NCBI GenBank assembly: GCA_041483895.1
Contig: JBGPGO010000004.1
Span: forward strand, 1-64,000
Length of the DNA stretch: 64,000 bases
Source: Fimbriimonadia bacterium
GTDB lineage: Bacteria; Armatimonadota; Fimbriimonadia; Fimbriimonadales; JABRVX01
Direction: 5' to 3'
Shown here: in pieces, positions 1-27,540 of the stretch
How the letters are laid out: each line of letters starts with the position of its first letter
Numbering within the stretch: the stretch's first letter is position 1
The notes under the pieces: generated by a model
The model's input: only the letters and a program-made list of their open reading frames with translations
Told to the model about the DNA's origin: nothing
The model's database searches: none
Position numbers and translations under genes: made by a program

Positions 1-136
1 AGCCGGCAAAGCAAAAAAGCAGGTCAACATCGCCGTCATGCGCAAACTCGCCAGCGCAATCGCGGCAGTCCTGAAGACAAAGACACCCTATGACCACAAA
101 TTGCTATTTTCCCCTTGACAAATCAAGACAGCATCT
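1..136 (+). mobile_element. IS110-family element, right end
   Basis: Transposase tail followed by TTGACA-AATCAAGACAGCATCT (a -35 box, then a terminal CT), resembling IS621-type right ends. Confidence 0.65.
2..118 (+). CDS. IS110-family transposase, C-terminal fragment (5' truncated by window)
   Basis: Frame 2 reads AGKAKKQVNIAVMRKLASAIAAVLKTKTPYDHKLLFSP*, matching the GKxKK..A..RKL....VLK....YD tail of IS110 recombinases. Confidence 0.8.
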   Translation, partial: AGKAKKQVNIAVMRKLASAIAAVLKTKTPYDHKLLFSP

Positions 137-22961: not shown

Positions 22962-23936
22962 ATGACCTGCCCACATTGCGCCAAGGATATCCAGCCGGGG
23001 GCCAAGTTCTGCATGTTTTGCGGCAAGCCGATGGTGGCGGAGCGGACGCTCGATGCCCTGAGCTATCCGCAAGCCCCGCGCACGGCTGAGGCTGTCGGCC
23101 CACAGACAGGGGCGGTTGCCAGGCCTGCTCGGCCTGCCGTCAAGAAATCCGGCCTGACCGGCGCCCAGAAGATGACGGCGGCGGCCATCGGAGTGGCTCT
23201 GCTCGCGTTGCTGGGTCTGGTGGCGTGGAAGGCGGGACTGTTCCAGGCACGAGGCAGCAACCCCAACACCGGCGTTCTGGAGGCGAAGGGCAGCAACCCG
23301 AAAACGGGCGTTCTGCAGGCGGCAGGCTCGAACCCCAAAACCGGCATCCTTCAGGCTGAAGGCAGCAAGAACGGCAAACCCGCAACCATGCCTGCCGACA
23401 TTGAGGACTGGCTGAAGCACTTAGAGCGGTGCGAGAAGCAGCGGCAAGGCCTGATTGCCGACGAGAAGGCCTCCTTCAAGGTGACCGCGACGAAGCTTTC
23501 GGTTGGGGGCGGCGTGGACGCACTCAACAAGATTATGGAAGGCGGCGACCCGAAACCGCCAGGCGACGAATTGGCCTCGCAGACCACCGCCATGCGCGCC
23601 GACTGGAACCGCCTCATTCAGTTCTTCGGTTCCAAACCACCACCTCCTCGATGTCGGAAGCTGGCGATGACCTACGACAATGTTCTAGTGCAGACATCGC
23701 TTTCGATGTTGGTGATTGGGGACATCCTGGGCGGCGCGGCGAAAGACCCGCAGGGTGCCGTATCCAAGTTGCAGGGCATGGAGGGCGATACGTATCAGAA
23801 CATAGACGTTCCGGTTGCGTCCTCCGATAATCAGGTGAAGGAGATTTGCCGTGATTATAATAAAGACAAGTGGTTTGTGATTAAGGGCGACGTGGCGGGG
23901 CCGTTGGCCGGGACCGGAGGAGGGAACGGGTTCTGA
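22962..23936 (+). CDS. Zinc-ribbon membrane protein with GSNPKTGVL repeats and a helical C-terminal domain
   Basis: CPHC...FCMFCG, one TM segment, three to four 11-aa repeats. Confidence 0.75.
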   Translation: MTCPHCAKDIQPGAKFCMFCGKPMVAERTLDALSYPQAPRTAEAVGPQTGAVARPARPAVKKSGLTGAQKMTAAAIGVALLALLGLVAWKAGLFQARGSNPNTGVLEAKGSNPKTGVLQAAGSNPKTGILQAEGSKNGKPATMPADIEDWLKHLERCEKQRQGLIADEKASFKVTATKLSVGGGVDALNKIMEGGDPKPPGDELASQTTAMRADWNRLIQFFGSKPPPPRCRKLAMTYDNVLVQTSLSMLVIGDILGGAAKDPQGAVSKLQGMEGDTYQNIDVPVASSDNQVKEICRDYNKDKWFVIKGDVAGPLAGTGGGNGF

Positions 23937-24101: not shown

Positions 24102-24791
24102 ATGATTTGGCGCCGCCGAGTTACCAACCATTTTGCGATCAGGATTTTGATGTTAGCCGCTGTGGCATGGCTGTCCCTTTTGGCAAATGTCGGCTGCCGG
24201 AACCGGACGACTGCCTCCCCAGAATCGGCAGCATCTATCGCTCCTCGGAGCAATGCTGGCGCACCGCCGGCGTATTCTAATCCTGGCGCAATTCGGAATG
24301 ATCAACCTTCCGCAGAAGAACAAGCCGCCCAAAGCTATTTGGATCGTCTGAGGACCGTGCAGTCACACTTCACGACCGTCTGTGCGACGATGCGGCAACG
24401 GAGTGTCGAACTGATAGCCCAGGGTCGGAGGAGGATGGAGGCAATCCGCGCGGGAAACCCCGATAACGGTGATACTAAGGACTGGGACAATTTCCTTTGG
24501 GATACAGGCCGTAATATGAAGACAATAATTAGTGAAGCGGGATCGTTATCCCCGCCGAATTCCGCCGTTGCATTGAATGACTCGTACAAACGGTATTTGC
24601 AGGCCACGTTTGATGCCCTTGGACGAATCTGGAGCGGCCTGAAACTTGCCGACAGCGACCCAAAGGCGGGAAGCGAGTACCTCCAGCAACAAAAGCAGGA
24701 CACGAGCGTCACGATCGCAGAACAGACCGCGAAAAAGGAATTCTCCGCATTTGTAGCAAAGTGGCACCTCCATCCTTCTTGGCAATTGTGA
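24102..24791 (+). CDS. Putative lipoprotein, paralog of 25156-25932
   Basis: Lipobox-like NVGC; shares YLDRL, GSLSPP, FVAKWHLH.W.L. Confidence 0.7.
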   Translation: MIWRRRVTNHFAIRILMLAAVAWLSLLANVGCRNRTTASPESAASIAPRSNAGAPPAYSNPGAIRNDQPSAEEQAAQSYLDRLRTVQSHFTTVCATMRQRSVELIAQGRRRMEAIRAGNPDNGDTKDWDNFLWDTGRNMKTIISEAGSLSPPNSAVALNDSYKRYLQATFDALGRIWSGLKLADSDPKAGSEYLQQQKQDTSVTIAEQTAKKEFSAFVAKWHLHPSWQL

Positions 24792-25155: not shown

Positions 25156-25932
25156 ATGATGCCGAAGTTTGTCATCGAACGAGAGCTGCCAGGAGCGGGC
25201 GATCTATCCAAGCACGACCTCCGCGGTGTGGCGGGTAGGCCGAAAGCATTTTGCCGCCGCACTCCCAGCCATTATGCGTTCAGGTTTTTGTTGTTTGCCG
25301 TCGTGGCAGGCTTGCCTGTTTTGGCAGGTGTCGGCTGCAAGAATCGGTCCGGTGCAAACCTGCAGTCGGCAGGCTCCAATGCGGTCCCCCAGACAACCTC
25401 CAATGGAACACCGGCATTTTCCAACCCGAACGCGATTCAGAATAATGAACCGACAACGGATGCAAAAGCGGCGCAGGCCTACTTGGACCGTCTAGGCCCC
25501 ATCAACGCTCGGTTCAATACTCTGTTCAAATCGATGGATGACAAGATGATCGCCATGATCCAGGATGCGGAGCAGAAAGCGCGTTCCGGGGCGCCCCCGT
25601 CTGAGGCAAGCATTTCGGAAGAATTCCAGGTAACGATGAGACCGGCTGCCACGGAAATGAACGCCATCTTTAAGGAGTTCGGTTCCCTGTCTCCGCCTCC
25701 TTCGGCCAAACCGCTGCACGATACCTATCTCCGATTTCTAACGTCGACCTGGGATGCCCTTCGCAAGGTCTGGGACGGATTAGAGATGGGGAAGGTAAAT
25801 CCACAGGCGGGATCAGACTACATGAAGCAGCAGGGGCTCGCTCAGACCGTCGCGGCGGCGCGGCAAGAAGTCGGGAGAGAACTGTCGGCGTTCGTATCAA
25901 AATGGCATCTGCATCAAACCTGGCGTCTGTGA
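25156..25932 (+). CDS. Putative lipoprotein, paralog of 24102-24791, with a DUF4242-like N-terminal stub
   Basis: RBS GGAGGG; MPKFVIERELPGAG; lipobox-like GVGC; YLDRL, GSLSPPP, FVSKWHLHQTWRL. Confidence 0.7.
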   Translation: MMPKFVIERELPGAGDLSKHDLRGVAGRPKAFCRRTPSHYAFRFLLFAVVAGLPVLAGVGCKNRSGANLQSAGSNAVPQTTSNGTPAFSNPNAIQNNEPTTDAKAAQAYLDRLGPINARFNTLFKSMDDKMIAMIQDAEQKARSGAPPSEASISEEFQVTMRPAATEMNAIFKEFGSLSPPPSAKPLHDTYLRFLTSTWDALRKVWDGLEMGKVNPQAGSDYMKQQGLAQTVAAARQEVGRELSAFVSKWHLHQTWRL

Positions 25933-25987: not shown

Positions 25988-26020
25988 TCATCCCTTCACA
26001 GTGCGACTGTGAAGGGATGA
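25988..26020. repeat. Palindrome TCCCTTCACAGT-N3-ACTGTGAAGGGA between convergent genes
   Basis: Second copy at 35708-35734, also between convergent genes. Confidence 0.75.
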
Positions 26021-26029
26021 CAGAGCTTC

Positions 26030-26818
26030 CTAGCGACAGCGGCAGCTACAGGTGATTTTGCCGTCAATCTTGTTGTTGGAAGACGAGGCGGTTGCAATGA
26101 CGACACAAACTGTCTGGACATGACCTGCTGGAGGCTTCGGACATTTGCGCCCCTTGCAGATCGCTGCGTTCGCGGCCTTTTCACATTCCGCCTCGGCCTT
26201 TTTCGCAAGGTCCTCGGCGCTGGTGCCTTCAATGTGCCGCTTGATCTCCCAAGAAGCGGCGTAGTCACAGTCTTTTGCCTCCAGCGGCTTTTCGCATTTG
26301 CACTTGCAAGTGACGCGAGTCGGGAGCGCTAGATTACAGCTCACCGGCATGCTGCCATTGGGACAGTTCGTTGGGCAACCGGCGGTACCGATCGGCACGG
26401 CCGCGCAGACGGCTGCCGAACTTGCGGACACGATCGGCTCGCATTTGTCGAGTTGAGGAGCTTCTTTCCCACCGGGCGGAACCTTGCCGACCGGCGGGCA
26501 TTTCCTTTCGGCGCACTTCTTGTTTCCGCCAGAGGTTGGCTCATTTACGCCGCATTGCTTCTTCAGCTCTTTATTTAAGGCTTCGGTCGCTTCGGCAGCG
26601 CTGCATCCGCAGCCCGTGATCCCGGCGCCCTCATATTCCCAGGCCGCCTTTACTTCGCAGTCGGCAGCCTGTGCACTGGCTCGAAGCATGCCGGTACTCA
26701 ACATTCCCAGGAACATCGCCAAACCGCCGGCCATTCTCCCAATCCAACCGAGGAAATCCCTGCGCGTCGTGAGGTTGGCTACCGATTCCGCTAGTTTCGT
26801 AACTTTCTTTTCTCCCAC
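26030..26818 (-). CDS. Tat-exported cysteine-rich protein (22 Cys, two internal repeats)
   Basis: TTRRDFL twin-arginine motif, ASA/AQA cleavage region, RBS GGGAGG; both repeats end T-C-x-C-x-C. Confidence 0.8.
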   Translation of the reverse strand: MGEKKVTKLAESVANLTTRRDFLGWIGRMAGGLAMFLGMLSTGMLRASAQAADCEVKAAWEYEGAGITGCGCSAAEATEALNKELKKQCGVNEPTSGGNKKCAERKCPPVGKVPPGGKEAPQLDKCEPIVSASSAAVCAAVPIGTAGCPTNCPNGSMPVSCNLALPTRVTCKCKCEKPLEAKDCDYAASWEIKRHIEGTSAEDLAKKAEAECEKAANAAICKGRKCPKPPAGHVQTVCVVIATASSSNNKIDGKITCSCRCR

Positions 26819-26836: not shown

Positions 26837-27424
26837 TTAGGGCGCCGCATCAATGTGATGTGCGGATTGATGCCGTTCATCGACACTAGATAATAAAAAC
26901 TGAATGTGCTGGTCGTTGTTCACGACACCCGTCGCCAGAATCTTTCCGTCCGGGCCGATATAGAAGGCGAACGGTGTCGCGAAAACCTCGTACTTCTTGG
27001 AGACTTCCCAATTGTGCTGAGCCGCGAACGGATATGCTCGCCCATTCGATTCAGCTATCTCGCCGGCCGGAATGTTGCAGACCTCCAGCACCGAGACCTG
27101 CCCTTTCTTATGTAATCGAGATAGCGCCGGCTCCACCGTGCTGCACGGCCCTCAGCCGGGCTGCGTAAATACCAAGAGTACCGATCTATCCGCAAAGTTG
27201 CACAGCCGGATAGTTTTTCCGTCGGGGTCAGGCAATTCAAAGTCAGGGGCCGTGGCGCCTACCTTCAGCCCGCTTCGATTGGTCTTCGATGGTGTGACAG
27301 CAGCCAACTGGTCCAGCCGCCATTGCATCAAGGCAAGCTGCCGCAAGACGCCAAGCATCAGGAAGATGCCAAACGCCGTGAGGATCCCGCAAGTCGTGAC
27401 GAGAACGATAAGACCAGTCGACAC
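26837..27424 (-). CDS. MauD/TlpA-like membrane-anchored thioredoxin, probable selenoprotein (UGPC)
   Basis: N-terminal TM, GLKVGATAPDFEL, VFTQPG-TGA-GPC in frame with the downstream ORF, cis-Pro motif ATPFAFYIGPDGKI. Confidence 0.75.
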
Positions 27425-27540
27425 GTCGCCCCTTTTCTGCCGGTTAAATCACCAGCAAGGAACATACCTTATCATGCCTCGCATCATTTGTCAATAAATT
27501 ACGGCTCATAAGACAGTCATTTTCCTTTTCGGACTCGATT

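What the first reader, a model, noticed from the sequence alone, without database searches (positions are those of the whole stretch)
26837..27424. Hidden selenoprotein candidate: MauD/TlpA-like thioredoxin with a U-G-P-C redox motif
Seen: two ORF-track fragments (27152-27424 and 26837-27136) share a frame, separated by one TGA at 27152-27154. Read-through gives VFTQPG-U-GPC-STVEP, so the TGA sits at the first position of the thioredoxin CxxC. Downstream, AGC-A-CGG-[TGGAG]-CCG-GC-GCT can form a hairpin whose G-containing loop starts 16 nt after the TGA. Known: UxxC thioredoxin-fold selenoproteins exist, and bacterial SECIS elements lie just 3' of the UGA. Inference: a 195-aa membrane-anchored Sec oxidoreductase that standard gene callers would split.
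Basis: partly seen in the sequence, partly recalled or inferred. Interest (0 to 1): 0.85.

Follow-up and report, generated by a model that had tools for sequence, protein, structure and literature searches.

The report
MauD-like thioredoxin newly switched to selenocysteine
A stop codon sits exactly on the catalytic cysteine of a membrane-anchored thioredoxin-type gene and is likely read as selenocysteine; all 80 related genes examined keep cysteine, so this likely shows an imported enzyme switching to selenium in a selenium-using bacterium.

Summary
Observation confirmed: minus strand 27424-26837 is one 195-codon frame with a single TGA (27152-27154) at the first Cys of a CGPC motif. Contigs of 4 sediment runs carry it unchanged. 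The protein is a TlpA/ResA-fold, MauD-like oxidoreductase. Its family usually precedes a twin-arginine, Cys-rich protein (46 of 56 loci), as here. For Sec: the genome has selA, tRNA-Sec and a TGA-containing selD. A G-G-loop hairpin lies 17 nt after the TGA, as in 19 of 21 TGA genes of two Sec families in relatives, against 0.6-1.9% in controls. The most conserved columns are kept on both sides (1 of 27 changed). Against: all 80 homologous loci have Cys, no close orthologue was found in 227 other genomes of the class, selB is missing from this 95%-complete assembly, and the hairpin is weak and failed my first, stricter test. Best reading (0.8): lineage-specific Cys-to-Sec conversion after likely horizontal gain. 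Rival (0.13): recent nonsense mutation. UxxC thioredoxin-fold selenoproteins are a known class; I found no MauD-type Sec form in print. The scan's index held no look-alike, though it has notes on other Mau-like modules with Sec in other genes.

The parts
27466..27494 (-). Sigma-70-like promoter site: perfect -35 hexamer (27494-27489), 17-nt spacer, TG-extended -10 matching 3 of 6 (27471-27466)
   Evidence: Read from the sequence; not listed by the scanner, which needs 4 of 6; function untested
27429..27436 (-). Purine-rich, Shine-Dalgarno-like stretch 4 nt before the GTG start
   Evidence: Sequence
26837..27424 (-). MauD-like, TlpA/ResA-fold thiol-disulfide oxidoreductase, 195 aa by read-through (P0001)
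   Evidence: AhpC-TSA and Redoxin above cut-off; MauD 60 bits, cut-off 188.6
27344..27415 (-). N-terminal hydrophobic membrane anchor (about residues 4-27); no K/R before it, 2 in the 15 residues after it
   Evidence: (helix 3-43)
27152..27154 (-). In-frame TGA at the first Cys position of the CxxC motif (U91-G-P-C94)
   Evidence: unchanged in contigs of 4 runs
27124..27144 (-). SECIS-like hairpin: 4-bp upper stem closed by U-G, GGA loop at 27134-27132, two bulged A
26972..26977 (-). Thr150-Pro151, the position of the thioredoxin-fold cis-Pro loop (role from general knowledge)
   Evidence: Invariant in alignment A1
26030..26818 (-). Partner gene 18 nt downstream: 262 aa, twin-arginine leader (TRRDFL), 22 Cys, GGAGG at 26828-26824; likely substrate
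   Evidence: no Pfam family; no homologue but itself; leader resembles the family's partner genes
25988..26020 (.). 15-bp stem-loop after the partner's stop, between convergent genes; likely terminator
   Evidence: z -6.3; related short copies in other contigs

Best explanation
The TGA at the catalytic position is likely decoded as selenocysteine, which would give a 195-aa membrane-anchored UGPC oxidoreductase that likely handles the disulfides of the 22-cysteine twin-arginine protein encoded 18 bases downstream. Shown: single TGA on the first Cys of the motif, thioredoxin fold, two-gene layout, host selA/selC/selD, hairpin in the lineage's SECIS register. Inferred: the module came in by horizontal transfer from a Planctomycete-like Cys-using donor; Cys became TGA and a minimal SECIS arose in this lineage; SelB exists but lies in an assembly gap. 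Inferred with lower confidence (about 0.55): the domain faces the cytoplasm and acts as a reductase/isomerase on the precursor before Tat export, because K/R residues follow rather than precede the anchor in 95 of 96 family proteins and the CGPC-type motif is thioredoxin-like.
For: Host uses Sec: selA, tRNA-Sec with TCA anticodon, selD with its own in-frame TGA. Two other TGA genes of this genome have TGA-bearing orthologues in relatives. SECIS register: my hairpin test passes at offset 17 for this gene, for 10 of 10 TlpA-type and 9 of 11 deiodinase-like TGA genes of relatives. Controls at offset 17: 22 of 3000 Cys codons, 3 of 528 TGA stops, 1 of 79 Cys homologues, 56 of 3000 synonymous recodings of its own peptide. 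The site fits the published loop pattern and spacing (PMC13188914, Fig 2 legend). Selection on both halves: of columns at least 97% conserved in 76 homologues, 1 of 14 before and 0 of 13 after the TGA are changed, against 64-81% of columns under 85% conserved; pN 0.38-0.43 against pS about 0.7. Codon 91 holds about 0.9% of the gene's nonsense target. Module: twin-arginine ORF right after the gene in 46 of 56 loci. Cys-to-Sec conversion in rare members of thiol oxidoreductase families is documented (PMC1794560 passages).
Against: 0 of 80 homologous loci have TGA (82 of 82 aligned sites Cys; 32 of 112 hits were not returned), so there is no independent Sec/Cys interchange. selB was not found by family, tblastn or a home-built profile; its site in the two closest relatives is mid-contig here and lacks it. 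The hairpin failed my first, stricter test, which also passed 22% of controls and 6 of 14 in-genome candidates. The passing test was set up afterwards; the 21 positives come from two families of kin genomes. The stem is among the weakest (-6.9, against -6.2 to -13.2 in passing positives). The protein is one of the most diverged family members: 19 of 71 well-conserved columns changed, family median 4%. The genome carries nonsense-broken genes, about 8 of 16 listed sites in 1.33 Mb by my reading. No binding or activity evidence for the partner.
Confidence: 0.8

Rival explanations
1. Recent nonsense mutation (one Cys-codon transversion) fixed in a clonal population; the gene yields only a 90-aa fragment and the hairpin is chance.
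For: All 80 homologous loci have Cys; long branch with relaxed-looking changes and a 3-residue deletion; other nonsense-broken genes exist in the genome; no variation among the runs that cover the site; the hairpin is weak and test-dependent.
Against: Needs two coincidences: a stop on the one codon where Sec is expected (about 0.9% of the nonsense target) and a loop in the lineage's register (0.6-1.9% at that offset, 5-8% in a wide window). No decay after the TGA at the most conserved columns, which excludes an old pseudogene but not a young one.
Confidence: 0.13
2. The TGA was a Sec codon, but this organism has just lost selB, so this gene and its other TGA genes are no longer read through.
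For: selB absent in all searches of the assembly; not at the site used in G001 and G002.
Against: The assembly is 95% complete in 43 contigs. selA and selB occur together in 20 of 20 selA-positive relatives and are both missing in the other 20 (one of the 20, G036, is unpublished; 19 of 19 without it). selA, selC and selD look intact. Gene order is poorly kept between these genomes.
Confidence: 0.05
3. Low-level read-through with Trp or Cys, or two separately translated halves.
For: A GTG at 27136 opens the second ORF.
Against: The second half would lack both catalytic positions and shows no Shine-Dalgarno-like stretch. TGA ends 528 of 1815 long coding ORFs here, so it is a normal stop; tRNA-Trp has a CCA anticodon.
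Confidence: 0.02

Closest known systems
UxxC thioredoxin-fold bacterial selenoproteins (Prx-like thiol:disulfide oxidoreductase PF00578, Redoxin PF08534, thiol-disulfide isomerase-like and UGC-containing TlpA, cd02966; Table 1 passages of PMC13188914)
   Same: Same Pfam domains, UxxC motif, SECIS-type hairpin inside the coding region.
   Different: Belongs to a MauD-like subfamily tied to a twin-arginine Cys-rich partner. The review has no mention of MauD or methylamine. NCBIfam Sec-type TlpA model NF041054 scores 24 bits against a cut-off of 300. Only one TGA member known.
MauD of methylamine dehydrogenase clusters (TIGR02661)
   Same: Best NCBIfam match for this protein, and matched by all 10 members of alignment A1; N-terminal anchor plus CxxC thioredoxin domain; lies just before a Cys-rich twin-arginine gene, as mauD lies before mauA (gene order and MauA leader recalled). 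MauD's role in disulfide exchange: passages of bioRxiv 10.64898/2026.03.05.709764.
   Different: 60 bits against a cut-off of 188.6; no MauE found in the genome; the partner matches no Pfam family; Sec in place of Cys.
ResA/TlpA/DsbE membrane-anchored oxidoreductases
   Same: Top structural matches: ResA 2h19, 2f9s, 1su9, E about 2e-10, 25% identity.
   Different: The charge pattern around the anchor suggests the opposite topology (ResA facing outward is recalled); no cytochrome c maturation genes seen next to it.
MauE/MauD-containing candidate RiPP clusters of Streptomyces (PMC7794033 passages)
   Same: Mau helper genes beside a Cys-rich precursor, without the rest of the mau cluster.
   Different: No MauE here; partner is 262 aa; no Sec mentioned in the passages seen.

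Membership tests
Bacterial selenoprotein (UxxC thioredoxin fold) | In-frame TGA aligned to a conserved redox Cys of homologues | tested here: met
   82 of 82 aligned sites in 80 loci are Cys
Bacterial selenoprotein (UxxC thioredoxin fold) | Host has selA, selC, selD | tested here: met
Bacterial selenoprotein (UxxC thioredoxin fold) | Host has selB | tested here: inconclusive
   Not found in a 95%-complete assembly; present in all 20 selA-positive relatives
Bacterial selenoprotein (UxxC thioredoxin fold) | SECIS hairpin after the UGA (G in loop, 16-37 nt spacing, stem of 4 bp or more, energy at most -7.5) | tested here: inconclusive
   Loop, spacing and stem fit and the isolated hairpin gives -8.4; failed script, passed script; same offset as 19 of 21 lineage positives. 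bSECISearch itself was not available.
Bacterial selenoprotein (UxxC thioredoxin fold) | TGA conserved in orthologues | tested here: inconclusive
   No close orthologue in 227 other genomes of the class or 400 of the phylum; distant homologues all Cys; one 90-aa database fragment ends just before the Cys, DNA unseen
Bacterial selenoprotein (UxxC thioredoxin fold) | Selenium in the protein | not testable with these tools
   Needs 75Se labelling or mass spectrometry
MauD (TIGR02661) | Score above the curated cut-off | tested here: not met
   60.4 against 188.6
MauD (TIGR02661) | Lies in a mau cluster with mauE and mauA | tested here: not met
   No MauE in the genome; partner has no methylamine dehydrogenase light-chain Pfam match; Atlas lead at 0.87 only
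TlpA/ResA-like thioredoxin fold | Fold, CxxC position and Thr-Pro loop | tested here: met
   (model built with Cys at 91)

The most novel reading that the evidence does not exclude
A de novo selenoprotein: a horizontally gained Cys oxidoreductase converted to Sec and given a minimal host-register SECIS within one lineage, serving as a cytoplasm-facing Sec reductase/isomerase dedicated to a Tat-exported 22-cysteine protein, in a MauE-free two-gene module that is common in soil and sediment metagenomes and that my searches did not find described.
Probability: 0.4. Interest if true: 0.65.

Novelty: new variant of a known kind. Interest (0 to 1): 0.45.

Why it matters
If right, it adds a MauD-type member to the bacterial selenoproteome and gives a clean natural pair, one Sec form against 80 Cys forms, for asking how little is needed to turn an imported Cys enzyme into a selenoprotein and what Sec changes in disulfide handling of exported proteins. 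It also shows that the usual 'TGA conserved in orthologues' filter would miss such singletons. The chemistry class (UxxC thioredoxin fold) is well known and the case rests on one organism, so the surprise is moderate.

Tried and rejected
Sequencing error: rejected. Old pseudogene: rejected by kept invariant columns in both halves. Looking for TGA-bearing relatives: 60 relatives, the class (227 others), the phylum (400) and 400 genomes of another phylum gave no close orthologue; the genome-contig scan gave 2 distant loci. A fragment search listed 120 of 192 hits; 1 (P0082) ends exactly before the Cys, about what the spread of fragment ends gives by chance, and its source could not be looked up, so it is left open. 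Protein databases are biased against TGA members, so searches were not counted as evidence on Cys versus Sec. Diverged strains: 4 lower-share runs gave no listed piece across the TGA. No RNA holder was listed, which says nothing on expression. My strict SECIS script failed this gene and 8 of 14 in-genome candidates while passing 68 of 300 Cys controls, so it discriminates poorly. Energy z-scores of the hairpin are not significant. In one search four loci were dropped (self, two distant, one mis-anchored) and three without a motif match were absent, leaving 76. In one search one of 12 TGA deiodinase-like loci of relatives (L187) was not picked up by the pattern. Partner homologue searches found only itself and weak Atlas leads. 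No complex prediction was run: an enzyme-substrate pair is poorly suited to it. Literature: 'selenoprotein'+'MauD' gave 81 papers, none relevant among the 20 listed; in 'MauD-like' or 'selenocysteine' none of the 10 listed held both terms; subscription journals are mostly not covered.

Full report
OBSERVATION. On the minus strand, 27424-26837 reads as one frame of 195 codons with a single internal TGA at 27152-27154. It lies at position 91 in VFTQPG-U-GPC, the first Cys of the CxxC motif in all 9 nearest proteins. Contigs of four sediment metagenome runs bridge the codon with no differing letter (one run may be the source of the assembly and the runs may be one campaign). The TGA is therefore real and fixed in what was sampled.

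THE PROTEIN. The read-through product scores above cut-off for Pfam AhpC-TSA and Redoxin. Its best NCBIfam match is MauD, at 60 bits against a cut-off of 188.6. The model (mean pLDDT 81.5, Cys at 91) has a long N-terminal helix and a thioredoxin domain whose best solved matches are ResA structures. Relatives at 40-50% identity come from metagenomes; two fragments are named Planctomycetes and Gemmataceae. No close orthologue was found in 227 other genomes of the class or 400 of the phylum. GC3 is 0.66 and 0.65 for this gene and its partner against a genome mean of 0.72, sd 0.04. Horizontal gain is my inference from these facts. Earlier scan notes call the host Armatimonadota/Fimbriimonadales; I did not test that label.

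THE MODULE. Eighteen bases downstream begins a 262-aa gene with a twin-arginine leader and 22 Cys, followed by a 15-bp stem-loop. In 46 of 56 family loci with at least 250 nt downstream a twin-arginine ORF follows directly, and in 2 more it precedes; most are about 80-160 aa with 4-20 Cys. No MauE was found in this genome; family loci were checked for it only by eye. In 95 of 96 family proteins scored, K/R residues are more numerous after the anchor than before it. By the positive-inside rule (general knowledge) this points the catalytic domain to the cytoplasm, where Tat substrates fold. That is an inference.

CAN THE HOST READ UGA AS SEC? It has selA, tRNA-Sec and selD with its own in-frame TGA. 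Two more TGA genes have TGA-bearing orthologues in relatives. selB was not found by the TIGR and Pfam models, by tblastn with 11 relatives' SelB, or by a profile of the C-terminal half that finds a control at 5e-98. Among 40 relatives, selA and selB are both present in 20 and both missing in 20 (G036, one of the 20, is unpublished and may not be published without permission; 19 of 19 without it). This genome is the only mismatch and is 95% complete, so a gap is the likelier reading. The gene beside selB in the two closest relatives lies mid-contig here without it, but gene order is poorly kept.

SECIS. The published model asks for a 3-9 nt loop with G in the first two places, a 4-16 bp stem, 16-37 nt spacing and energy at most -7.5 (PMC13188914, Fig 2 legend). 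The hairpin at 27144-27124 has loop U-GGA-G, spacing 16-17 and -8.4 kcal/mol. My first script failed it and passed 22% of controls. A second script, written afterwards, leaves out the first 9 bases, which the ribosome would cover (general knowledge). It finds the loop GG at offset 17, and does so for any cover from 3 to 13. I then applied it unchanged to new positives: 10 of 10 TlpA-type and 9 of 11 deiodinase-like TGA genes of relatives pass, all at offset 17. Controls at that offset: 22 of 3000 Cys codons, 3 of 528 TGA stops, 1 of 79 Cys homologues, 0 of 17 Cys sites of TlpA paralogues, 56 of 3000 synonymous recodings of the same peptide. In a wider window (15-25) controls pass at 5-8%. The positives are two families in kin genomes, three Cys orthologues of the TlpA family also pass, and only 4 of 11 in-genome candidates pass in the wide window. 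This is support of roughly 10- to 50-fold by my estimate, not proof.

CYS OR SEC IN RELATIVES. In the 80 metagenome loci returned (of 112; one of the two search patterns was blind to this codon) all 82 aligned sites are TGC or TGT. This is the main evidence against. One 90-aa fragment among 120 listed ends exactly before the Cys, which chance contig ends can give; its DNA was not seen.

DECAY OR SELECTION. The protein is diverged: 19 of 71 columns conserved at 85% or more are changed, and its terminal branch is among the three longest. But changes avoid the most conserved columns on both sides of the TGA (1 of 14 before, 0 of 13 after), and pN is well below pS in both halves. There is no second stop or frameshift, only a 3-residue deletion. 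An old pseudogene is excluded; a young one is not. The genome holds nonsense-broken genes (about 8 plausible sites among 16 listed over 1.33 Mb of paralogue alignments). Codon 91 carries about 0.9% of this gene's nonsense target, so that rival needs both this hit and a chance hairpin in register.

MECHANISM. Most likely SelB binds the hairpin and delivers Sec at codon 91 (inferred). U91 would be the attacking residue and C94 the resolving one, with Thr150-Pro151 forming the substrate loop (from thioredoxin-fold knowledge). The enzyme would reduce or shuffle disulfides of the downstream precursor before export (inferred, by analogy with MauD and methylamine dehydrogenase; passages of bioRxiv 10.64898/2026.03.05.709764). 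Weak decoding would also yield a 90-aa truncated form.

COMPARISON AND NOVELTY. UxxC selenoproteins with the same Pfam domains are catalogued (PMC13188914 Table 1 passages), and Cys-to-Sec conversion in rare members of thiol oxidoreductase families is described (PMC1794560 passages: 33 events in 17 families). That review does not mention MauD, and two literature searches listed no paper on a MauD selenoprotein. Of these papers, and of PMC7794033 and PMC4807772, I saw keyword passages only, no supplements. The scan's index has no look-alike sequence; it holds notes on Mau-like operons with Sec in other genes and on other new selenoproteins of this genome, which I did not test as such.

VERDICT. 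Real feature; likely a lineage-specific selenoprotein variant of an undescribed MauD-like family (0.8), with a recent nonsense mutation as the live rival (0.13). New variant of a known kind; interest 0.45.

Noticed in passing
L149-L161, L171 (orthologues of G000 C9:26617-27120): TlpA-type orthologues switch between TGA (10 of 13 loci in relatives) and Cys codons (G002, G009, G018) while all 13 keep the hairpin at offset 17; G009 (Cys) and G012 (TGA) are one genus. Looks like repeated recent Sec-to-Cys reversion.
   Followed up: partly
G000 whole genome: Only selA-positive genome of 21 without a selB match.
   Followed up: yes
G000 C25:39655, C26:7332, C3:162077, C22:7146, C7:125587, C6:97616, C1:151510, C1:504721, C2:68740: Further in-frame TGA candidates with Cys-like contexts from a coding-score scan; some may be ordinary gene junctions.
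   Followed up: no
window 24102-24791 and 25156-25932 (+): Tandem paralogues, 40% identical, with lipoprotein-like N-termini and no Pfam family above cut-off; low GC3.
   Followed up: no
window 25988-26020: 15-bp stem-loop with related short copies in other contigs of the same runs; terminator or small repeat.
   Followed up: partly
L040-L119: Two-gene family (MauD-like gene plus a small, variable twin-arginine Cys-rich gene), often just after long Ser/Thr kinase-like genes; no description found in my searches.
   Followed up: partly
window 23253-23360: Three tandem 36-nt repeats inside the zinc-ribbon membrane protein gene 22962-23936.
   Followed up: no
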